Shown here: positions 9,577 to 45,111 of the stretch, piece after piece | Layout of the letters: each line of letters opens with the position of its first letter | Position numbering within the stretch: the stretch's first letter is position 1 | From: a virus | Virus record (IMG/VR): IMGVR_UViG_3300044716_000973 | Location: 9,120-73,119 of that record | Direction: 5' to 3' (one strand) | Length of the DNA stretch: 64,000 bases | The notes under the pieces: model-generated | Databases searched by the model: none | What the model was told of the DNA's origin: nothing | What the model saw: only the letters and a program-made list of their open reading frames with translations | Made by a program: the position numbers and the translations under genes

Positions 9577-9607
9577 TTGACATTTAAATCAATCTAGTAT
9601 ATAAATA
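9577..9607 (+). promoter_or_regulatory. Composite sigma70 and T4-late promoter of the tmRNA
   Basis: TTGACA (9577-9582), 17 nt, TATAAATA (9600-9607). Confidence 0.8.
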
Positions 9608-9611
9608 GAAT

Positions 9612-9966
9612 ATCAGTTGTTGACAATCAACAATAAAGGTTCCGAGGACGCGGGGGCAGTACCCGCCACCTCCACCATAGACACTCTGGGCCGAATACAC
9701 ACCGGCTAATAAAAGTTTCGATTACTATTGCTGAAATCCGGGCAATAGAATAGGCAGAGTTTGGAATCGCAGGTACTCTCTAGCCAGAGTGTCTATGATG
9801 GGGGTGAACTAGGATCGACTGGGATGGAATAGGGCGGTTCGAGACTGATTGATTGGCAAAGTGCCACTAAACGTAAATGCAAACGATAACAACGCATATG
9901 AAGGTCTTGCACTAGCTGCATGATTTTTCGGGGGATGGGTTCCACCTAGCAACAGAACGGGCCCAC
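9612..9966 (+). ncRNA. ssrA: Circularly permuted two-piece tmRNA (alphaproteobacterial type): acceptor piece ending CCA 9677, intervening segment 9678-9799, coding piece from 9800; outer ends approximate
   Basis: T-arm GCGGG-GGCAGTA-CCCGC, then CACCTCC-A-CCA pairing with GGGGGTG (9800-9806) with a G3.U70 pair; GGATCGAC after the 5' strand; tag ORF 9879-9923 encodes ANDNNAYEGLALAA*. Confidence 0.95.
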
Positions 9967-10002
9967 ACATACCACGAGTTGTTCTAGAAACACCACGAGT
10001 GG

Positions 10003-13539: not shown

Positions 13540-13570
13540 GAAAGGGGGCCTTCGGGTCCCCTTTCTTTTT
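13540..13570 (+). terminator. Terminator with C(UUCG)G tetraloop between convergent genes
   Basis: GAAAGGGGGCC-TTCG-GGTCCCCTTTC-TTTTT. Confidence 0.9.
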
Positions 13571-15197
13571 ATGCCGCTTTCATTGGTGTATTGGTTTCTT
13601 TATAACCAAATCGGCTAAGGTAGTATTGAACACTATTTCTATCAACCATGGTTGGTAAATTTTCAACTACTGATGAACCAGCCGCACTAATATTTGGTGG
13701 TGATACTACAGGAGGCGGTGTAGGTTTACTTGCATCGTCTTTTATTTTAGCAATTGCCGCAGTTTGCGTAGCAGCTTCATTTGATATCATTTGTGCAAAA
13801 TTTGGTGCAGCAGTTGTTAAGCTTCGTGCCATGCCCGGACCAACAACTTTTCCACCAACAGTTCCGATAAACTCTGCTATATTTGTAAAAGTATCATCAA
13901 CTTTTCTTTTTGCAGTTCCTATTACATTCTCTACCATCGATTGCTGTTGACTACCTTCTCCTTGTTCTGGAGAAAGTCCTGGTCCTTTAAATTCAAAATG
14001 TCCGCCGTGACTACCCGCGTATTTTAGTTCGGCCCAACCATATTTGTGCCCATGTTTTTTTATCCATGCATTTGATTCTCCATGGATATCCATTGCAATG
14101 CCAGATAAATGAAGGGAAGCTGCTGCTGGCTTATAACCCTTTTTTTTCATTTCTTCTTGATATGCACGGGTTCTTTTGCTGCTAGTAACGTCGCTAGGTT
14201 TTACTACACCATTCGAATCTATCATCATTTTATAAAAAGCTTCGGCGCCTTCTTTACTAAACACAACAGGTCGACCCTGCTGGTCATTACCGCCTGCTAT
14301 TCCCCAACCTTCACCAGTATTTGGGTGATTGACTTTGATTATTTTGCTTGCTGGTTTTTGTTGTTTAGCAGCATTTGGATCTGGCTTTCCACCGGCCCAT
14401 GTAGGTGCGTTGCGTTCCCACCAAGATCTGTCATCTTTTACAGTCAGTGTTTTCTGTGATTCTTTTGCCGGTGGTGTAGCCGGAGTTATTGGGGTGCGAG
14501 TGCCTGCTTCTGCTTGTTCACGTAAAGAAGGTGTTGGCTGTTCTGGAGCTGGTGGAACAGGTGTAGCATCTGTCTTTGGTGGAGGTGGAGAATATACTGG
14601 AGCAGCTTCTGCTTGTTCGCGCAACGGTGCACCAGGTTTTACAGGAGAACTGCTTTCTGAACTACTATCAGGAGTTTCTTCTGGAACATCGTCTGGGAAA
14701 AAACCATTAAAAAAATCTGTAATTTGTGTTACTGTATCAGAAATAAAAGTTGCGGTCTTTAGTGTAAAGTCTACCATTCCTGTAATGAAGTTCATTACTG
14801 GATCATATGCTAACAAACCAAGACCAAGAAGACCGAGCATGCCAAGGCCGCTGCCTGTTGACGGCGATTGAACTCTCTTGGCGTCCTTATTTTGTTCTAA
14901 TTGATTTTGGCGTTCTATTCTGTCTTCTTGAGCATCTAACTTGCTATTTTGATACGCAATCTTTTGATTGTTAAGCTTTTGCTTAAAAAGATTGTCCATT
15001 ATAGAAAGTTGATCTAAAGCGGCTATAAGCTTTTTAGAATTTAATTCTGGTTTTTTGTCAGGAACGGCGTTATCATTTGCAACGGCTTTATTTGCGTTTT
15101 TAATATCACTTTCGTTCAATAGAACAGAACCAACAATACCAAAAGACTTGGCAGTATTGGTTGTATCAATAGCGGTAATAAGAACTTTTAATGCCAT
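13569..15197 (-). CDS. Tape-measure/hub-associated virion protein with M15-type (D-Ala-D-Ala peptidase-like) domain
   Basis: N-terminal coiled coil, TM-like segment, Pro-rich linker, SLHLSGIAMDI...GHKYGW...GHFEF zinc-peptidase motifs; position after gp51. Confidence 0.65.
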   Translation of the reverse strand: MALKVLITAIDTTNTAKSFGIVGSVLLNESDIKNANKAVANDNAVPDKKPELNSKKLIAALDQLSIMDNLFKQKLNNQKIAYQNSKLDAQEDRIERQNQLEQNKDAKRVQSPSTGSGLGMLGLLGLGLLAYDPVMNFITGMVDFTLKTATFISDTVTQITDFFNGFFPDDVPEETPDSSSESSSPVKPGAPLREQAEAAPVYSPPPPKTDATPVPPAPEQPTPSLREQAEAGTRTPITPATPPAKESQKTLTVKDDRSWWERNAPTWAGGKPDPNAAKQQKPASKIIKVNHPNTGEGWGIAGGNDQQGRPVVFSKEGAEAFYKMMIDSNGVVKPSDVTSSKRTRAYQEEMKKKGYKPAAASLHLSGIAMDIHGESNAWIKKHGHKYGWAELKYAGSHGGHFEFKGPGLSPEQGEGSQQQSMVENVIGTAKRKVDDTFTNIAEFIGTVGGKVVGPGMARSLTTAAPNFAQMISNEAATQTAAIAKIKDDASKPTPPPVVSPPNISAAGSSVVENLPTMVDRNSVQYYLSRFGYKETNTPMKAA

Positions 15198-17026
15198 TAC
15201 GCAGCCAACTTATAATGAGCAAGATACTTTTCGATTCCATCACTACCAGGATAGTTTGGATTTATAACAGAGATAGATCCGGTTGGTGATGCTGACTTTA
15301 ATGTTTGTGCAGCAGATGGTATGTTTGTAGCAGTAGACGCGGTTTTCTTTTCACCCATTGCAATTTGGTTTTGAATCTTATTTGATTCTTCTGAAATAAG
15401 TTTTGCAAAATCTGGTCCGGTTGTAGTAAGATTTCTCGAAACACCAGGACCCACAATCTTGCCACCAATATGTCCAATAAAGTCAGCAATTGTTGTTAGC
15501 ACTTTATCAGCGCCGGTTGCAATGTCTTCCATTTGAAACCCGCCTGAAGAAGAAGCTGGACCGGCTCCAGGCGCATAGTATCCTTCTTGCTTAGCAATGG
15601 ATTCCATCAATTTTGTTTTTTCACCCTGATTTAAATCAGTATATTTCTTATTAGGATCTATGCCAGCCGTTCCAATAACTTTTGATGCGTGCGTAGGATC
15701 TTCTGCCCACTGTCCTAGTGTTTGCCCAATTGGTCCACTTGAATATTTGTCACGACTTAATTGAGCATCCAAAGCAGCAAATCCCGCGGCAGCCGTAGGA
15801 AACACTGCAACAGGAGGACCGTTTGTAGACGGAGAAGATCCTACTGCGCCTAGAGATATTGCAAGCGGACCATACATTATATTCCCAGGATTGTTTGTAC
15901 GCGCGGCTATAGTTCCTCCACGGCGTTCTGTAGTTCCATCAGAATATGTTACCGTGGTATATCCTCGACCGCCGTCAACTACACCGGTGATAGTCTTGTC
16001 TTGAGATGTAGTGTTTGGTTGTGTTGCTGACGGAGCAGTACCATCAACTTTTTCTCCACCTTTTAATTCTTTAGCCATTGCATCTGGCGTATATGCACTA
16101 GGATCTGCTTCTATTCTTTTTCTGGCTGCCTCAGAAGTACCACCTCTGTTATTAGGTCCATATGCCTCTAAAATATCTTTATATTTTGAAGGTAGATTAG
16201 CTGCCTTATATGTTTTGCCATCTGGAAGAATATATCCTTCAGTCATACCCTGTTCATTAAGAACGGCTTTCATGCCGTATTGTTCTAAACCTTTGCGTGA
16301 TTTATCTGCGTCATTATACGTATCTTTCATGAATTTGTCCATTCCCCATAATATAAGGAGCGAACTTCCTAAAGCGGCTAACGCTGGTCCGGCCGCAATA
16401 GCATTAACTAAACCTACCAGACTTCTAATATTTTTTAAGAAAGAGAGACCACGTAACCATTTCCAAGCAGTAGAAAATGCTTTAATGGCTGCTTTAAAAC
16501 CTTTGAATAATGCACTTAATCCGAGTTTAGCAAAGTTAGTAGCAAATCCTCCTAACACGCCTAGAAGAGTCGAAAGGATTCCTCCTTTTGATTGTTTTTC
16601 ATTATCATTTGCTGCGCCGTATCTTTTTCCAAGATCATTGAATATACTATTCTGTTCGATCTTAGCTTCTCTTGCGGCAAGGGCATTTTCTTCGTAGACT
16701 TTTCTATCAAAGTCAATTTGCTTTTTCAGTGTTCCATTAATTGAAACCAGATACTTAACAACGTCTGACAGAAGCTTTTCAGTATTATCTGACTTTGCTT
16801 TGTACGAGCTTTTGGCGTTTGCTGCTGGTAAAGATCCACTGCCAGCAATACGCTGTTGGCCAGCACTTGCAGCCATTCCAAAGCTGGCATAGATTATATT
16901 TGAAGTTTGCTTTTTTGTTGACTGGTCTTTTGAAGAGAGTATAGTAGAGACTCCAGCCGCGATACCGCTAACTGCTTTTTCTCCGCCTGAAATAACACCT
17001 TTTACAGCGTCTAACAATCCCGCCAT
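15197..17026 (-). CDS. Tape-measure/hub-associated virion protein with lysozyme-like (RxNNPGNI) domain
   Basis: Coiled coil and amphipathic/TM region, RTNNPGNI...AVFPTAAAGFAA...IAKQEG; C-terminal region paralogous to 13569-15197. Confidence 0.6.
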   Translation of the reverse strand: MAGLLDAVKGVISGGEKAVSGIAAGVSTILSSKDQSTKKQTSNIIYASFGMAASAGQQRIAGSGSLPAANAKSSYKAKSDNTEKLLSDVVKYLVSINGTLKKQIDFDRKVYEENALAAREAKIEQNSIFNDLGKRYGAANDNEKQSKGGILSTLLGVLGGFATNFAKLGLSALFKGFKAAIKAFSTAWKWLRGLSFLKNIRSLVGLVNAIAAGPALAALGSSLLILWGMDKFMKDTYNDADKSRKGLEQYGMKAVLNEQGMTEGYILPDGKTYKAANLPSKYKDILEAYGPNNRGGTSEAARKRIEADPSAYTPDAMAKELKGGEKVDGTAPSATQPNTTSQDKTITGVVDGGRGYTTVTYSDGTTERRGGTIAARTNNPGNIMYGPLAISLGAVGSSPSTNGPPVAVFPTAAAGFAALDAQLSRDKYSSGPIGQTLGQWAEDPTHASKVIGTAGIDPNKKYTDLNQGEKTKLMESIAKQEGYYAPGAGPASSSGGFQMEDIATGADKVLTTIADFIGHIGGKIVGPGVSRNLTTTGPDFAKLISEESNKIQNQIAMGEKKTASTATNIPSAAQTLKSASPTGSISVINPNYPGSDGIEKYLAHYKLAA

Positions 17027-17208
17027 TATTTCTTTCTACTCTCTATTTCTTGTTTCTGCTTTTCTAAAAATTCCATTAACATATCAACATATAGATCTCT
17101 TTCATATGGAATTAAGCTTTCAATCTCTGTAATAGAATATTTGTGATGCTGAGCCAAAGAGAATACCATTGAATAGTATCTTGCTAAGTCTGTATGACTC
17201 AGCCCCAC
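17026..17208 (-). CDS. gp51: Baseplate hub assembly protein gp51 (short form)
   Basis: FSLAQHHKYSITEIESLIPYERDLYV; directly after gp26. Confidence 0.8.
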   Translation of the reverse strand: MGLSHTDLARYYSMVFSLAQHHKYSITEIESLIPYERDLYVDMLMEFLEKQKQEIESRKK

Positions 17209-17906
17209 ATAAAAAAATCTTTGAGATTTGTTAACTCAATTTCCCTATCATTACCAAGAGAATTTTTGTACTTAATAGTATGTTGAAGCTTTGGAATACT
17301 TTCAAAGAAACCTCTGATCTTTTCAAATGTCGAAACGTCTAAGTTATCTAAAAACTCAGAGATTTCTTTTTCAGAATAATCAGTTGCTGGATACACACTA
17401 TCTGCGTCGTAAATAACATCAATACAATTTACAATAAAGAACGTCATGAGTTCTACTTCACTATTGATATCACCCATCTTATCTGTAATATCAGCAGTAG
17501 GATATCTCATCATCATTCCTACATCATCTGTAATTTCAATCTTTGAATTTGCTTGCTCTGGTATATTTACTTCGATTTCATCCAGATTGAGTTCAAAGTC
17601 ATAAATCTTTTCATCTTCTGTATCTTTATATGATAGCTTAATGATGTTATTTACAGACTTGGCTCTGAGTTTTAAGAACAAATATTCTAGATCGAAAATA
17701 GCTAGAGTGTCAATGTTCACTTCACTCTGAATACAGTTTCCAAGGATTTGTTTAATTGCTCTAATAATTTCTGCATCATTTCCACTCTGTTGAGCAATAA
17801 GCAGGATTTTTTCTTCTTTCACTAGGAACGGCCGAAATACAATTTTCTGCTGCGAAGATGGAATCACAACATCAAAAAGCGGCTGATCAATTTTTGGCAA
17901 AGTCAT
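17199..17906 (-). CDS. gp26: Baseplate hub subunit gp26
   Basis: MTLPKID, FRPFLVKEEKILLIA, FDLEYLFLKLRAKSV and L..FF C-terminus. Confidence 0.9.
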   Translation of the reverse strand: MTLPKIDQPLFDVVIPSSQQKIVFRPFLVKEEKILLIAQQSGNDAEIIRAIKQILGNCIQSEVNIDTLAIFDLEYLFLKLRAKSVNNIIKLSYKDTEDEKIYDFELNLDEIEVNIPEQANSKIEITDDVGMMMRYPTADITDKMGDINSEVELMTFFIVNCIDVIYDADSVYPATDYSEKEISEFLDNLDVSTFEKIRGFFESIPKLQHTIKYKNSLGNDREIELTNLKDFFMWG

Positions 17907-17921
17907 TTTATAAAGTCTCCA

Positions 17922-18947
17922 TTAAGGTGCAGGCGGACCGATTCTGGTCCCACTAAGATTTTTCGTGGTATTTGTTCCTACCGAGTCATTTCCACTTATA
18001 GGTTTCGGCGGATTATTATTTGTAGCGTTTGGCGAAGAAGCACCGACAGAACTTTGTGGATTTTTCCCAGGACGTCGGCTATAATCTTTCTTGCTTTTCT
18101 TTTTGTTTTCTTTTTCGGCTGCTGCAGCTTTTGCATCGGCCGCAACTTGCGCATCGACTGCTTCTTCGAGCTTTCCGTTCAAAGCACGAGGCGTAAGTGT
18201 TTGCATATTAGTAAATGCAAATGTTACGGTCAGTTTCTGTACTTCGTTTTCCTGTGCATATGCCAAATTTTGAGATTGAATATTCATAGGAAAAACATCA
18301 TAAAGAATATATTCTGTTACAGTATATAGTTCTCTATCATATACGTGTATTCTAACAAGAGGACATGTATATTCATCTTTGTAACCAACTTCATAACCAA
18401 GGTAATCATTTAATCCAGGACGTGCATTGAGTTCTAACCCATCTCGTTCGGTAAAGAACATTTGACTGTTGCCTTTGGTTTCATAAAATACAATTGTATT
18501 CATCCACTGATAAAAGAATTCAATTAGTTCAGATCTTTTATCAACCAACCAAGTAAGAGTCAAATCATTAAATTGCATTCCATATGGCACTTTTTCTACA
18601 GGACCATAACCGTATCTTCTAACATTTTCTTCTTCTAAAACTTGTACAGTTGGTAACACTGCTGATTCACAACGAAGAATTAATTTATCTGAATTATTTT
18701 TTACAAATTCTGTGAGTGGAACGTTTGCTTCAAATCCAAGTCTAAACGGAGCAAATGTTACCAAATAACTGTGTGTTGGTAACATGTCATTTTTATTAAT
18801 TTCAGCTTTAAAACTGTTAATATCAAATCTTCGCGTTTTTCTGGCAGTAACAATGATCTCATCATACGATTCTGTAATAGTAAACGGATCAGTTCTTAAT
18901 GGCGCCGGTGGCGTTTTTGCTTCTTCATTTGATGGTGCTTCAGACAT
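17922..18947 (-). CDS. Tail-tube-fold protein, gp54-like baseplate/tail tube initiator, with N- and C-terminal extensions
   Basis: LRCESAVLP, YGYGPVEKVPYG, FFYQWMNTI, YKDEY, DVFPMNI and KLTVTFAF. Confidence 0.7.
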   Translation of the reverse strand: MSEAPSNEEAKTPPAPLRTDPFTITESYDEIIVTARKTRRFDINSFKAEINKNDMLPTHSYLVTFAPFRLGFEANVPLTEFVKNNSDKLILRCESAVLPTVQVLEEENVRRYGYGPVEKVPYGMQFNDLTLTWLVDKRSELIEFFYQWMNTIVFYETKGNSQMFFTERDGLELNARPGLNDYLGYEVGYKDEYTCPLVRIHVYDRELYTVTEYILYDVFPMNIQSQNLAYAQENEVQKLTVTFAFTNMQTLTPRALNGKLEEAVDAQVAADAKAAAAEKENKKKSKKDYSRRPGKNPQSSVGASSPNATNNNPPKPISGNDSVGTNTTKNLSGTRIGPPAP

Positions 18948-19546
18948 TACTTTCTAATCCCTAGCATTCTCTTCGAATCGTTCCATACCTGAGTCTTTGA
19001 CTGCTTGGTAAAACGTTCGGTTGGTAAAAAGAGAGCAATGTCCCATTCAGAAGGGTACACATACATAAAGCGAGAACGTACATGCTCGTTAAGATAATGC
19101 TTCACACAAGGAGAGAAGAATCTCATCTTTGCAATACTTGTAAGAAGCTGATAGTTAAGTTTGATTTTTGTTGACTCGTCATAGCGAGTGTTGTTGGCAT
19201 AGTCATATAGACCATCCATTAACTTGGCTCTAAGTTGTGGTGGAAGATAGTGAAGGTTAAGACCATAGAATCCACCAGGTACTTTACGAAATGGAAAGAC
19301 CAGAGGGAATCTATCGTAGTAAGGAAGTTCATCCTTCCACTTTGGATCGTAGTTGAACATGTACATCGAACCAACGATTGGTGAAGTTGTTAGACGCGCC
19401 GAGTCACCTCTCATCAGTGTACGTTCATTTACATTACGCATTGCACCGGCTGTTTCACGAAACCAATCACGTGCACCTTGAGTACGCGCTGGAATCTGTC
19501 CAGAACGAACACCTTGTGTAATGATTGTATCAAATATAGTTGCCAC
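18947..19546 (-). CDS. gp2: DNA end protector gp2
   Basis: GSMYMFNYDPKWKDELPYYDRFPL, GLNLHYLPP and CVKHYL. Confidence 0.92.
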   Translation of the reverse strand: MATIFDTIITQGVRSGQIPARTQGARDWFRETAGAMRNVNERTLMRGDSARLTTSPIVGSMYMFNYDPKWKDELPYYDRFPLVFPFRKVPGGFYGLNLHYLPPQLRAKLMDGLYDYANNTRYDESTKIKLNYQLLTSIAKMRFFSPCVKHYLNEHVRSRFMYVYPSEWDIALFLPTERFTKQSKTQVWNDSKRMLGIRK

Positions 19547-20031: not shown

Positions 20032-21282
20032 ATGGCTATTATCAAGCTTAATAACGACGGATTGAGAAAAAGTAAAGGCATTGCAAGCCGACTTATTGAC
20101 AACGTCGTAAATAAAGTAGAACGAAAGCTCGAAAACGCAGTTGAAGATGCTTTTGGAAAAGCACTAAAGAAGATTGGACTGTCTGACAATATTGCGGGAC
20201 AGCTTTCTGCTCGCTTTGGTGATGCGTTCTCTGTAGGTCAAGCTGATAGATTCTTTGGTACATCGACTTCTGAACAGAATAGAGTTTCTTCAAAGGATTG
20301 CGTAGATAATATATTAAATCGCCAAGCAGAAACTGTCGTAGATGCTCAACAGTCAATTACTAGCAAAGTTCAGTCAGATCCAGGATTGCTTCAATTCCCG
20401 CCTGACGTTGGCCCGTATTACATGCTTATGAAGTTTACAGAGTATGCTCGACCAAGCCCACAATCAGTAGCTACTCGCAAAGGCCTTAAAAACTTTATTC
20501 TTCCAGTTCCAAGAGAACTCAAAGAGCAATTTTCAAATAACATCGATCCAAAGGGTGTAGGTGTTGTAACCGGCGGCCTTGCAGATATTGGTACAGACGT
20601 TCTTCGAAGCGGAGGAAAAGATGGCGCTGGTGCTGAAGCTGGTAACCAATTAAAAGCAATTGCATATGCGGCTGCAGTTCAAACAATAGGAGACTTTGGA
20701 GATAGTCTTGCTCAATTTGGTGGCGCAGTTCCAAACCCGCATCTTCAAGCAATTTTTGGTGGTGTTCAAATGAGAACACACAGTTTTCAGTGGACATTTT
20801 CTCCAAGAAATGCGATTGAAAGCAGACAACTTCAACAAATCATATATGAACTTAAGAAATATTCATTGCCAGCATTTAGTAATCTCGGTACGGCATCTCT
20901 TCAATATCCACCATTAGTTGATATTGAATTGTATCCATGGAAAAAACTTGGTGAAGATTTAATTATTTTTAAGCCATGTTTAATCCAAAGTATTTCTGTA
21001 AACTACTCTCCACAAGGACTGCCATCATTTTTTAAGGGCACCAAACAACCAACATTCATTCAAATTTCAATTGACTTTATGGAAACTGAAATTCAGACTG
21101 CATATGATTATAGCACAAAGAAAGATGATAGATCTGATACTGCATCTGAAATATACAAGGAAGTAGCTGGATTTGCAACAAAAGAATTTCCAGAAATTTC
21201 TAATGTCGCAAGTAAAGCCGGTGGTTATATTAGTGGATTAGTGGATACCGCCGCGGCTGCTGCAGAAAAGGCTAATCGATAA
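20032..21282 (+). CDS. gp48: Baseplate tail-tube cap gp48-like
   Basis: NPHLQAIFGGVQMRTHSFQWTFSPRN..ES, LQYPPLV, PCLIQSISVNYSP and IDFMETEI. Confidence 0.8.
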   Translation: MAIIKLNNDGLRKSKGIASRLIDNVVNKVERKLENAVEDAFGKALKKIGLSDNIAGQLSARFGDAFSVGQADRFFGTSTSEQNRVSSKDCVDNILNRQAETVVDAQQSITSKVQSDPGLLQFPPDVGPYYMLMKFTEYARPSPQSVATRKGLKNFILPVPRELKEQFSNNIDPKGVGVVTGGLADIGTDVLRSGGKDGAGAEAGNQLKAIAYAAAVQTIGDFGDSLAQFGGAVPNPHLQAIFGGVQMRTHSFQWTFSPRNAIESRQLQQIIYELKKYSLPAFSNLGTASLQYPPLVDIELYPWKKLGEDLIIFKPCLIQSISVNYSPQGLPSFFKGTKQPTFIQISIDFMETEIQTAYDYSTKKDDRSDTASEIYKEVAGFATKEFPEISNVASKAGGYISGLVDTAAAAAEKANR

Positions 21283-42590: not shown

Positions 42591-42799
42591 TGTTAGTTGA
42601 TACAAATCATCCAGGGTATGTAAAAGATACTGACTCTGGCGTTATCATAAATAACAATGAAGAAGAATATAAGAAGTTCTTAGCTGCAAGAGAAGCAAGC
42701 AAAAGAAACAACAGTTTGTGCAAGAGAATGACTGATGTTGAAAATGAATTACGTGATATCAAGTCTTTGCTCGTGCAGTTAGTACACAGGAATAATTAA
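42590..42799 (+). CDS. Small conserved hypothetical protein
   Basis: KDTDSGVIINNN plus a coiled coil; coupled on both sides (TAATG). Confidence 0.7.
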   Translation: MLVDTNHPGYVKDTDSGVIINNNEEEYKKFLAAREASKRNNSLCKRMTDVENELRDIKSLLVQLVHRNN

Positions 42800-45111
42800 T
42801 GTCAAGACAAGTAGCTAACGTTGATATCATTACTGATAGCTTTGAAGTTTGGTTGCTCCAGACTAACGAGCTGCTGAATTCTTTTTCGACCGAAATTATT
42901 ACTGCAAACACTACTGTTGCTAACACCGGTAATAATACTATTGCTCGTACCGCTCAGCTTTGGGGTACATTCGGTTCGAATAACGTTGTAGTTACTACGG
43001 CGCTTCGTGGTGGTAATGTTAATGGTCTTTCTGCTAACCTTGTCATCACTACTAATGCTACAGCTTACGTTGCTGCAGACGCCGGTATTCGTGTTCTTGC
43101 CGGAAACAGCACCTCGAACAGCTACCTGAATCCAGTTGGTGTTTACCTTGGCTTAGGATCTGCTAATTCCTTTGTAAACAGTAGTCTGATTATAACACAA
43201 TCTAGCAGTACTGTCAACACGAATATTACACCAACACGCATTCAAGTTGCAGATGCTACAACCACAGCAAACATGACTGCGAACGCTTTTAGTACTGGTC
43301 TGTTTGTTGCCAATACTACTATGGTAGCCATTGGTGCAAATGTCTTTGCAAATGCTACAACGATAGTTGTTGCCAACAGTTCATTCGACAGTAAGTTTGG
43401 TAACGGTTCTTGGTCTGGTATTGCTAATCTAGTAATTACACCAACCAACTACCTGATAATTTCTGGTGCTGCTAATGTAACATCAAATGCTAACTTTGCA
43501 AATACGATTGTTGTAACTGGTAATGCTACATTATCCAATACACTAGCTGTAACAGGCAACGTTACATTATCGAACACTCTAGCCATAACTGGCAATGCTA
43601 CTTTGTCAAACACTATTGCTGTGACAGGTAATGCTACATTCTCAAATGCCGTTGCTATCACAGGTAATGCTACATTCTCAAACACAATTGCTGTTACTGG
43701 CAATGCCACATTATCCAACACACTAACAGTAGTTGGTCTAGCAAATGCTTCTGGCAATGTAAATACAACAACAGTGAATGCAAACGTTTCGATGAATGTC
43801 GGCGCTAACGTAAATCTTTCAAATACAAGAATTACGGTAGGTACCGGTAGTGTTAATACATTCATTACAGCCACTGCAATCGAAACCGATGGTACATTAA
43901 CAGTTGCTGATGCTGCTACATTATCTAATACATTGGCGGTTACTAATACTACAACACTATCAAATACACTAACTGTTGCCGGTCTTGCATCACTAAATGC
44001 TGCACTAAATACCACAACTGCAAATGCTTCTGTCGCTGTGAATGTTGGCGCCAATGTCAATCTTACATTAGATAGATTTAATGTTGGCAATAATAGTGTT
44101 AATACATTCATTACAGCCACTGCGATCGAGACAGACGGCACACTTACCGTTTTTGGTGCTACTGCATTATCTAACACACTTGGTGTAACCGGTCTAACCA
44201 CTCTTTCTGGTAACCTAAACACTACAACAGCAAATGCTTCGGTTGGAATCAATGTTGGTGCTAACGTAAATCTTTCAAATACAAGAATTACAGTCGGTAC
44301 TAGTTCTGAGAATACGTTCATTACAGCTACCGGTATTGAAACTGATGGTACTCTATCGGTTGCTAATACTACAACACTATCAAATACGTTGAGTGTAACT
44401 GGTGCAGCTACATTCTCAAACACTATTAGTGTAACAAATACCGCTACGTTCTCAAATACGATTACGGTTACCGGCGCAGCCAGCTTTGGAAACACAATTG
44501 CTGTAACTAATTCTGCTACACTATCAAATACACTGGGTGTAACCGGATTAAGTACTCTTTCTGGTGGCATGAATACCACGACAGCAAATGCATCAGTTGC
44601 AATGAATGTTGGTGCCAATGTTAATCTTACATTAACAAGAATTACAGTAGGTACCGGCAGTGTTAATACATTCATTACATCCACTGCAATTGAAACTGAT
44701 GGAACCCTTGGTGTTCTTGGTGCAACAACACTATCAAACACTGTTACAATTGGTGGAACTACTACATTCAAATCAGATTATGTAGTTGATGTATCTGCAA
44801 ATGGTGATATTGGAAACGTAATTGGACCAGTGCTAATCTATACATTCACTAAAGCAACATATTCATCGGCCAAGTTTGAAGTTCAAGTAAAGAAAGGTAG
44901 TAACACCCAGCTTTCTGAACTTGTGCTTGCTCATAATGGTACCACCGATGCATATGTGACTGTCTATGGTACAGTTGCTTCAAATGGTGCCGCATCTCCT
45001 CTTGGAACATTTGTAGCAAATACTGGTTCTTCAGATACCAATGTGAATTTATATCTTCAACAAACCGTTGCAAATTCCGCGGTTAAAGTTATAGCTCATC
45101 TAATTAAGTAA
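42799..45111 (+). CDS. Fibre-like structural protein with Asn/Thr-rich beta repeats
   Basis: [12 protein letters not shown]-terminus, 12-aa and about 70-aa repeats, C-terminal YSSAKFEVQ...SELVLAHNG domain. Confidence 0.75.
43501..43716 (+). repeat. Six tandem 36-nt (12-aa) units, NT[IL]AVTGNAT[LF]S
   Basis: Direct reading of the translation; synonymously diverged DNA. Confidence 0.85.

What the first reader, a model, noticed from the sequence alone, without database searches (positions are those of the whole stretch)
18837..18863. TonB-box-like motif (DEIIVTARK) on the tail-tube initiator
Seen: the gp54-like protein has a roughly 40-aa Pro/Glu-rich N-terminal extension ending DEIIVTARKTRR, just before the conserved domain starts (FDINSFK). 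Known: E[IV][IV]VTA[RQ][KR] after a disordered linker is the typical TonB box of TonB-dependent receptors in Caulobacter and sphingomonads; group B colicins use their own TonB box for import; gp54 sits at the tube end that enters the periplasm. Inference: the tail may engage host TonB directly for energised entry or inner-membrane docking. I know of no described case of a virion protein carrying its own TonB box.
Basis: partly seen in the sequence, partly recalled or inferred. Interest (0 to 1): 0.75.

Follow-up and report, generated by a model that had tools for sequence, protein, structure and literature searches.

The report
TonB-box look-alike on phage tail tube
An uncultured T4-like phage carries, on a floppy arm of a ring protein at the far end of its tail tube, a ten-residue copy of the tag that bacterial outer-membrane importers use to dock the TonB energy motor, so the phage may grab that motor during DNA entry, although binding has not been shown.

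Summary
DEIIVTARK is residues 29-37 of a 341-aa gp54-like tail-tube initiator (17922-18947, minus strand). It lies in a 40-aa arm that AlphaFold2 models with low confidence, and translation cannot start downstream of it.

I built a TonB-box model de novo from 49 receptor N-termini of four genomes with alphaproteobacterial-type tmRNA (consensus EEIVVTASRR).
- The phage site scores 24.1 bits; real boxes have a leave-one-out median of 20.3.
- It is the top of 17,588 windows in the phage's proteins.
- One real receptor carries the identical 9-mer.

Such sites occur in 21 of 197 N-arms and 3 of 268 C-tails of gp54-like proteins (shuffles give about 0.1), never in the fold, and are scattered over the family tree.

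A complex prediction with a TonB C-terminal domain gave weak support: 0.41, best control 0.00.

Against the TonB reading:
- The larger sister clade keeps a different strand (R-I-x-T-x-G) at the same place.
- T4 gp48 uses an N-terminal arm as a structural anchor.
- The host is unknown.

Best reading, about 50%: a TonB-box mimic exposed in the periplasm after contraction. The scan has noted like motifs on other phage DNA (58 notes). Binding is untested.

The parts
17922..18947 (-). gp54-like tail-tube initiator gene, 341 aa plus stop
   Evidence: ORF. phrog_45 'tail tube' E 1.9e-35. Pfam gp19 (22.5 bits, cut-off 28.2) and Phage_TTP_2 (20.1, cut-off 27) are both below threshold. Foldseek matches T4 and Klebsiella phage KP1 baseplate-tube chains at E about 3e-8.
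18828..18947 (-). N-terminal arm, residues 1-40, modelled with low confidence; absent from cultured relatives
   Evidence: AlphaFold2 pLDDT is under 50 for residues 1-51. Cr30, phiM12, RHph_I1_18 and DLP_6 start 1-3 residues before the fold.
18834..18863 (-). TonB-box-like motif DEIIVTARKT, residues 29-38 (the finding covers 29-37)
   Evidence: 24.1 bits against the de novo TonB-box model, top of 17,588 windows. The identical 9-mer occurs in receptor L072. Conserved in the near clade.
18885..18899 (-). LRTDP, residues 17-21: a second conserved patch of the arm, meaning unknown
   Evidence: 44% mean pairwise identity in the near clade, against 15-24% for the rest of the arm. Visible.
18183..18827 (-). 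tube-protein fold, residues 41-255
   Evidence: 80% mean pairwise identity in the near clade. Core pLDDT 70-86. Tube/Hcp fold matches.
17925..18182 (-). C-terminal tail, residues 256-341: a long helix followed by a Ser/Asn/Pro-rich end
   Evidence: Helix 259-286, and pLDDT under 50 from residue 286 on. No TonB-like site here in this phage.
18947..19546 (-). gp2-like DNA end protector; its stop overlaps the gp54-like start
   Evidence: phrog_429 E 1.6e-58. Overlap read.
20032..21282 (+). gp48-like baseplate tail-tube cap, the ring next to gp54 in T4
   Evidence: PF11091 E 6.9e-8. phrog_230 E 1.3e-49. No TonB-like site.
17199..17906 (-). gp26-like baseplate hub subunit
   Evidence: PF12322 E 5.1e-58. 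phrog_150.
9579..9967 (+). phage-borne permuted tmRNA of alphaproteobacterial type; the only clue to the host class
   Evidence: Rfam RF01849, 109.1 bits, E 7.5e-29, full length. ARAGORN tag ANDNNAYEGLALAA.

Best explanation
The gp54-like tube initiator carries a short linear motif that mimics the TonB box of the host's own TonB-dependent outer-membrane receptors. By homology with T4 gp54, six copies sit on flexible N-terminal arms of a ring near the distal end of the tail tube. Shown here: the motif exists, must be translated, lies in a segment modelled with low confidence, is conserved in the near clade, is statistically indistinguishable from real alphaproteobacterial TonB boxes, and recurs in arms and tails of distant gp54-like proteins. 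Inferred: before firing, the arm is held in the inner baseplate, as the gp48 arm is in T4. Sheath contraction drives the tube end through the outer membrane and frees the arm in the periplasm. The motif then pairs as a beta-strand with the C-terminal domain of the inner-membrane-anchored TonB. This would tether or steer the tube tip to the inner membrane, and perhaps let the ExbBD-driven pull help open the tip for DNA delivery.
For: (1) A model learnt de novo from 49 receptor N-termini of four genomes with alpha-type permuted tmRNA gave the consensus EEIVVTASRR. 43 of 49 sequences have a site above 8 bits, and the leave-one-out median is 20.3 bits. The phage site scores 24.1 bits, and receptor L072 reads DEIIVTARKR. 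(2) Specificity: it is the top of 17,588 windows in the window's proteins. In 43 related viral loci the only sites of 16 bits or more are 4 gp54 arms, with 0 elsewhere in 171,340 windows. (3) Recurrence: 21 of 197 N-arms and 3 of 268 C-tails of gp54-like proteins reach 15 bits; 300 shuffles gave means of 0.11 and 0.08 (maximum 1). There are 0 such sites in 51,961 windows of the fold. Seven of the 21 arms are in separate 50%-identity clusters (P0157, P0177, P0192, P0207, P0236, P0242, P0256). Related P0192 and P0189, in one unresolved four-row clade, carry the site on the N-arm and the C-tail respectively. (4) On a 141-row tree the label needs at least 7 changes across well-supported branches. 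(5) The arm is modelled with pLDDT under 50. (6) The phage carries an alpha-type tmRNA. (7) Complex prediction of arm 1-60 with TonB residues 118-218 from a tonB-exbB-exbD locus of genome G381 gave 0.41, with the best of 3 controls at 0.00. The tool's verdict is weak support. The mark was reached by 58 of 80 solved complexes and 2 of 110 mismatched pairs, but scores of 0.60 or under came from only 7 of those 80 and from both mismatches that passed. Partner pLDDT is at least 68 and the runs agree in at least 56% of contacts. Solved TonB-box complexes exist, so this pass may only reflect likeness.
Against: The sister 'wide' clade (44 of 60 rows of A1; 105 proteins, none reaching 15 bits) keeps R-I-x-T-x-G at the same aligned position: R in 38 of 44 rows, G in 40 of 44. 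Four wide-clade loci also carry ANDN-tag permuted tmRNAs, so a difference in host class does not explain the split. Those phages also show no TonB-like site elsewhere within up to 10 kb on each side of gp54, less where the contig ends. So a strand at this place has some function that needs no TonB-box likeness. Only 5 residues separate the core of the motif (A35) from the fold (F41), whereas the model sites start 13-18 residues before the Plug match in most receptors; this may be sterically tight. The distribution in distant clades is patchy. Within the near clade, 8 of 16 rows score under 15 bits. The host is unknown, so whether it has TonB is unknown. No binding data exist. A fibre repeat in the same phage ([10 protein letters not shown]) scores 19.0 bits, so the model is not free of false positives.
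Confidence: 0.5

Rival explanations
1. A purely structural anchor strand. The N-arm of the tube initiator interlaces with the inner baseplate or the first sheath layer by beta-strand addition and holds the tube until firing. The likeness to a TonB box is then a by-product of being a hydrophobic strand flanked by charged residues.
For: [quoted passage not shown] A strand is conserved at the same aligned position in both clades, and the wide-clade form R-I-x-T-x-G does not resemble a TonB box. The motif is only 5 residues from the fold.
Against: It does not explain the identity with real boxes over 9-10 residues, including the acidic residue before and the basic residues after. It does not explain the motif on C-terminal tails in other lineages (P0166, P0189, P0261), nor the variable distance of 1-30 residues to the fold. 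The monomer AlphaFold2 model gives no docked strand. Cultured relatives work without any arm.
Confidence: 0.28
2. A real host-directed linear motif, but with another aim: it binds a different periplasmic beta-augmentation partner, or it binds TonB only to block TonB-dependent uptake or superinfection, not to help entry.
For: Enrichment in flexible arms and tails, and absence from the fold, show selection for a displayed peptide but do not name the partner. T4's spike tip contacts the inner-membrane-anchored chaperone PpiD (abstract of PMC7600766 in the listing), so tail tips do touch other periplasmic proteins.
Against: The match is to the TonB box specifically. Six copies per virion, inferred from the T4 ring, could hardly titrate a cell's TonB. 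No other partner is suggested by any result.
Confidence: 0.12
3. Chance resemblance with no function of its own.
For: The core is only 6-7 residues long, and a fibre repeat in the same phage reaches 19.0 bits.
Against: 21 observed arms against 0.11 expected. The motif is conserved across near-clade arms whose other parts diverge: 42% identity against 15-24%. There are 0 other hits in 171,340 windows of related loci.
Confidence: 0.08

Closest known systems
TonB box of TonB-dependent outer-membrane receptors (the form found here: EEIVVTA/G-S/T-R/K-R)
   Same: The same ten-residue pattern, with an acidic residue before and basic residues after. It lies in an extended segment before a folded domain, and one receptor (L072) has the identical DEIIVTARK.
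   Different: It sits on a virion tube protein, not on the plug of a beta-barrel. It is 5 residues rather than about 13-18 from the next folded domain. Binding is untested.
TonB boxes of group B colicins, pyocins and pesticin (bacteriocin piracy of TonB)
   Same: A foreign protein carries its own TonB box on a disordered N-terminal region to exploit the host motor. This is my recall, backed only by abstracts in the listing, for example PMC3390615 and 10.1101/2021.05.11.443673.
   Different: Bacteriocins thread the box through a receptor barrel. Here the box would arrive in the periplasm on a tube driven through the membrane, and the cargo is a genome.
N-terminal anchor loop of T4 gp48
   Same: An N-terminal arm on a tube-initiator ring protein that lies outside the tube fold and is released on contraction (passages).
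   Different: It is on gp48, not gp54. No sequence likeness was tested. Its role is structural, with no host partner proposed.
T4 gp54 tail-tube initiator
   Same: The same fold class, and the same gene neighbourhood with gp48, gp26, gp2 and gp4.
   Different: The profile match to T4 gp54 is weak (E 0.26-0.51). By my recall T4 gp54 has no N-terminal arm; the five cultured relatives checked here have none.
T4 central spike contact with PpiD
   Same: A precedent for a tail-tip part touching an inner-membrane-anchored periplasmic protein (abstract in the listing).
   Different: A different phage protein, a different host partner, and no linear motif.

Membership tests
T4 gp54-class tail-tube initiator | Tube-protein (gp19/Hcp) fold | tested here: met
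   Foldseek finds T4 baseplate-tube and KP1 baseplate-cup chains at E 3e-8 to 1e-7, plus Hcp and gp19. phrog_45 E 1.9e-35. The Pfam gp19 model is below its cut-off (22.5 against 28.2).
T4 gp54-class tail-tube initiator | Encoded in the baseplate-hub module next to gp48 and gp26 | tested here: met
   gp26-like, gp2, gp4, gp48, gp53, gp5-like and gp6 genes flank it.
T4 gp54-class tail-tube initiator | Forms the hexameric ring between gp48 and the first gp19 ring in the virion | not testable with these tools
   Needs a virion structure or proteomics.
TonB box | Sequence fits the box of receptors of the host group | tested here: met
   24.1 bits against a leave-one-out median of 20.3 for 43 real boxes. 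The identical 9-mer is in L072.
TonB box | Lies in an accessible, unfolded segment | tested here: inconclusive
   pLDDT is under 50 for residues 1-51 in a monomer model. Its state in the assembled baseplate is unknown, and it is only 5 residues from the fold.
TonB box | Binds the TonB C-terminal domain by strand addition | tested here: inconclusive
   Complex prediction 0.41, best of 3 controls 0.00; the tool's verdict is weak support and it reports no contacts. This may reflect likeness to solved complexes.
TonB box | Function depends on TonB-ExbBD and the proton-motive force | not testable with these tools
   Uncultured phage, unknown host.
gp48-type structural anchor arm | N-terminal arm outside the tube fold, on a tube-initiator ring protein | tested here: met
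   40-aa arm before the fold.
gp48-type structural anchor arm | Arm inserted between inner-baseplate proteins and the sheath before contraction | not testable with these tools
   Known for T4 gp48 only, from passages of the preprint.

The most novel reading that the evidence does not exclude
TonB-gated genome delivery. After contraction, the six TonB-box arms on the tube tip capture TonB, and the proton-motive-force-driven pull of TonB-ExbBD on these arms mechanically opens the gp48/tape-measure gate or drags the tip to the inner membrane. The host's own nutrient-uptake motor would then power or license DNA ejection. The motif has been gained, lost and moved between arm and tail repeatedly as these phages change hosts.
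Probability: 0.2. Interest if true: 0.9.

Novelty: new variant of a known kind. Interest (0 to 1): 0.72.

Why it matters
How contractile-tailed phages find and open the inner membrane after piercing the outer one is still poorly understood. A virion-borne TonB box would name a concrete host partner and an energy source for that step. It would extend TonB piracy, known from bacteriocins, to viruses. It would predict that resistance can map to tonB or exbBD without any TonB-dependent receptor being involved. It would also offer a sequence marker of host range for uncultured phages, since the box should follow the host's own receptor boxes. The hypothesis can be tested with peptides and purified TonB domains without culturing the phage.

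Tried and rejected
Host identification failed.
- A back-translated pattern of the phage tmRNA tag found 5 loci in genome contigs. None is alphaproteobacterial by title, and I treated them as chance without examining them further.
- BLAST of the phage tmRNA against 401 genomes of one phylum matched 53, mostly over the conserved tRNA-like part only. No taxon names are given for these genomes.

Other steps that led nowhere:
- A first TonB-box model of width 11 from 29 receptors with weak pseudocounts was too sparse: the phage site scored 14.9 and a second window 13.9. I replaced it with the 49-receptor model.
- Motif searches of the window with a strict pattern (all stop-to-stop frames of 80 aa or more) and a loose pattern (the 30 largest proteins) found no second credible copy on gp48, the two tape-measure-slot proteins or other hub proteins.
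- No TonB_C domain is encoded in the 73-kb record, which is 43% complete.
- The profile search of solved structures gave only weak hits to T4 gp19 and gp54 (E 0.07-0.5).
- Looking for a cultured model phage, tblastn with P0177, P0242 and P0236 found only relatives under 32% identity. All five cultured relatives checked lack both the arm and the motif, with best scores of 3.2 bits or less.
- I considered that the ACG-2014f alignment starting at query residue 30 meant a conserved motif in a cyanophage. It starts upstream of the annotated CDS, so I rejected this.
- I did not run an oligomer or baseplate-partner complex prediction, because the single job went to TonB.
- Supplements of the cited papers were not seen; they may hold gp54 arm details for T4.

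Rows dropped:
- L057 (a 451-base contig end) was left out of the receptor set.
- For alignment A1 I gave 60 of the 120 listed proteins.
- For the tree I left out cluster members P0121-P0150, three of every four of P0018-P0120, and rows with an incomplete fold, leaving 141 rows.
- The background amino-acid frequencies were typed from recall and are approximate.

Full report
**What is there.** The window is part of a 73,119-base virus record estimated 43% complete. The ORF 17922..18947 on the minus strand encodes 341 aa beginning MSEAPSNEEAKTPPAPLRTDPFTITESYDEIIVTARKTRRFDINSFK.

The start codon overlaps the stop of the upstream gp2-like gene (TAATG). No alternative start codon lies between it and the motif. 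The next Met, M55, is inside the conserved fold. Relatives at 81-83% identity share the N-terminus MSEAPSN. The motif is therefore translated.

**What the protein is.**
- PHROGs gives phrog_45 'tail tube' at E 1.9e-35.
- Pfam gp19 and Phage_TTP_2 match below their cut-offs.
- A profile of the family hits T4 gp19 and gp54 only weakly (E 0.07-0.5).
- The AlphaFold2 model (mean pLDDT 59, core 70-86) matches baseplate-tube chains of T4 and Klebsiella phage KP1 at E about 3e-8, as well as Hcp and other tube proteins.
- The neighbours are gp26-like, gp2, gp4, gp48, gp53, a gp5-like lysozyme hub and gp6.

It is a gp54-class tube initiator of a T4-like phage that is distant from all cultured phages: 41 phage records match, all under 30% identity.

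**The arm.** Residues 1-51 have pLDDT under 50 in the monomer model. Cultured relatives (Cr30, phiM12, RHph_I1_18, DLP_6) begin 1-3 residues before the fold and so have no arm.

The protein database returned 240 homologues, of which 120 were listed. Two groups appear.
- **Near clade** (P0001-P0016, 66-86% identity). A strand E/D-I-V/I-V-T-A/G-x-K/R sits just before the fold, while arm length runs from 29 to 175 aa. Column counts out of 16 are E/D 14, I 14, V/I 13, V 14, T 13, A/G 15, K/R 14. Mean pairwise identity is 42% in the motif, 44% in an upstream LRTDP patch, and 15-24% in the rest of the arm.
- **Wide clade** (44 of the 60 aligned rows). This clade has R-I-x-T-x-G at the same aligned place, with R in 38 of 44 rows and G in 40 of 44.

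**Is it like a TonB box?** The phage carries a full-length alphaproteobacterial-type permuted tmRNA (RF01849, 109 bits; tag ANDNNAYEGLALAA). I sampled 401 genomes of one phylum with this tmRNA, and 53 matched. ARAGORN found permuted tmRNAs, six with ANDN tags and one with an ANKN tag, in 7 of 8 loci checked.

From five of these genomes I took Pfam Plug matches. Four of the five genomes had them, 60 matches in all. I read the 60 residues upstream of 49 of these matches. An expectation-maximisation search that never saw the phage sequence found one motif, EEIVVTASRR, starting 13-18 residues before the Plug match in most receptors. 43 of 49 sequences have a site above 8 bits, and leave-one-out scores have a median of 20.3 bits and a minimum of -3.5.

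Receptor L072 reads DEIIVTARKR. The phage site scores 24.1 bits. It is the best of 17,588 windows in the 30 largest proteins and the best in the whole record. The runner-up, at 19.0 bits, is [10 protein letters not shown] in a repeat of the fibre protein 42799-45111. It lacks the basic tail and looks like a false positive.

**Recurrence.** A profile search of 1.84 billion representatives found 1,517 relatives at E 0.001 or better, of which I examined the best 150. I mapped the fold by an HMM on 283 of the 288 proteins held.
- 241 have a complete N side of the fold, and 197 of those have arms of 10 aa or more.
- 21 arms and 3 of 268 C-terminal tails reach 15 bits.
- None of 51,961 fold windows does.
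- Shuffling each arm or tail 300 times gave means of 0.11 and 0.08, with a maximum of 1.

Fourteen of the 21 arms belong to the near clade and its cluster members and are not independent. Seven are separate 50%-identity clusters:
- P0177, EEIVVTANRR at residue 6
- P0242, DEIVVTANRI
- P0236, EEIVVTGQRM
- P0192
- P0157
- P0256
- P0207

The sites lie 1 to 30 residues before the fold. P0166 (DEIIVTGRRR), P0261 (a fragment) and P0189 carry the site on the C-terminal tail. P0189 and P0192 fall in one unresolved four-row clade.

On a FastTree of 141 rows the label needs 11 changes, at least 7 of them forced by well-supported branches. Within the distant clades the motif is patchy: close relatives often lack it. 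In 43 related viral loci the only sites of 16 bits or more are four gp54 arms of the P0012 type, with none elsewhere in 171,340 windows.

This is the behaviour of a short linear motif under selection in flexible segments. A strand fixed in one structural slot would not behave this way.

**Binding test.** Genome G381, whose receptor L072 carries the identical 9-mer, has a tonB-exbB-exbD locus. The complex of arm residues 1-60 (with alignment A1) and TonB residues 118-218 scored 0.41 (runs 0.36, 0.49, 0.41). The best of 3 controls scored 0.00.

The tool's verdict is weak support. The mark was reached by 58 of 80 solved complexes and 2 of 110 mismatched pairs, but scores of 0.60 or under came from only 7 of those 80 and from both mismatches that passed. 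Partner pLDDT is at least 68 and the runs agree in at least 56% of contacts. No contacts were reported. Because TonB-box complexes have been solved, the pass may only show likeness. This TonB is a stand-in; the real host is unknown.

**Against the TonB reading.**
- The wide clade keeps a different, conserved strand at the same position.
- Four wide-clade loci also carry ANDN-tag permuted tmRNAs.
- Those phages show no TonB-like site elsewhere near gp54.
- So some function of this strand does not need TonB-box likeness.
[quoted passage not shown] I read passages of preprint 10.64898/2026.03.06.709160 for this, not its figures or supplements.
- The motif core ends 5 residues before the fold.

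**Reading.** The two roles can be combined. The arm may be held in the baseplate before firing and freed in the periplasm afterwards, where the near-clade form can pair with TonB. I put about 0.5 on a functional TonB-box mimic, 0.28 on a purely structural strand, 0.12 on another host-directed use, and 0.08 on chance.

**Novelty.** TonB-box piracy is known from bacteriocins (my recall, plus abstracts). Four searches of the paper library listed no paper that describes a TonB box on a phage virion protein. I saw listings and abstract starts only, and subscription journals are not covered.

The scan itself holds 58 earlier notes in at least 56 genomes of TonB-box-like motifs on tail-tip proteins of uncultured phages, all with binding untested. 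These were leads that made me scan other tail proteins and distant relatives. They are not independent evidence.

Noticed in passing
window 9579-9967 (+); also L108, L110, L121, L125: A phage-borne permuted tmRNA of alphaproteobacterial type with tag ANDNNAYEGLALAA. Four related viral loci with wide-clade gp54 carry like tmRNAs; their tags are ANDNNAYGAYALAA, ANDNDSFADIRLAA (in two loci) and ANDNTAYEGLALAA.
   Followed up: partly
window 13569-15197 (-) and 15197-17026 (-): Two large proteins sit where T4-like phages have the tape-measure/hub genes. Both have hydrophobic segments. One has an M15-peptidase-like HxxxxxxD...H pattern and the other a weak endolysin match (phrog_873). They share a similar C-terminal stretch (IADFIG..GGK.VGPG). 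They are probably ejected, wall-degrading proteins.
   Followed up: no
window 42799-45111 (+): The fibre protein has repeated NTI[AV]VTGNAT strands that score 11.5-19.0 bits in the TonB-box model. This looks like a false positive of the model, not a box.
   Followed up: partly
window 18885-18899 (-), residues 17-21: LRTDP followed by an aromatic or Leu is conserved in near-clade arms 8-12 residues before the TonB-like strand. The wide clade has P-x-L-E-x-x-V-N-Q there. The meaning is unknown.
   Followed up: no
N-arms of P0001-P0120: Motifs of the kind S/T-x-N/Q-E/A-E (SNEE, TNEE, PNAE) recur near the N-termini of the arms, sometimes in several copies. They may be helix N-caps.
   Followed up: no
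P0192 and P0189; P0166 and P0261: In related lineages the TonB-like site sits on the N-arm in one protein and on the C-terminal tail in the other, as if the motif were portable.
   Followed up: partly
L030, L042, L052, L058 (receptors of genome G297): The receptors of this large genome show LP-x-I/V-x-V-T/D-A-P-like strands far upstream, not the EEIVVTA form, so TonB boxes differ between genomes with alpha-type tmRNA.
   Followed up: no
window 18947: The stop codon of the gp2-like gene and the start codon of the gp54-like gene overlap by one base (TAATG), which suggests translational coupling.
   Followed up: no
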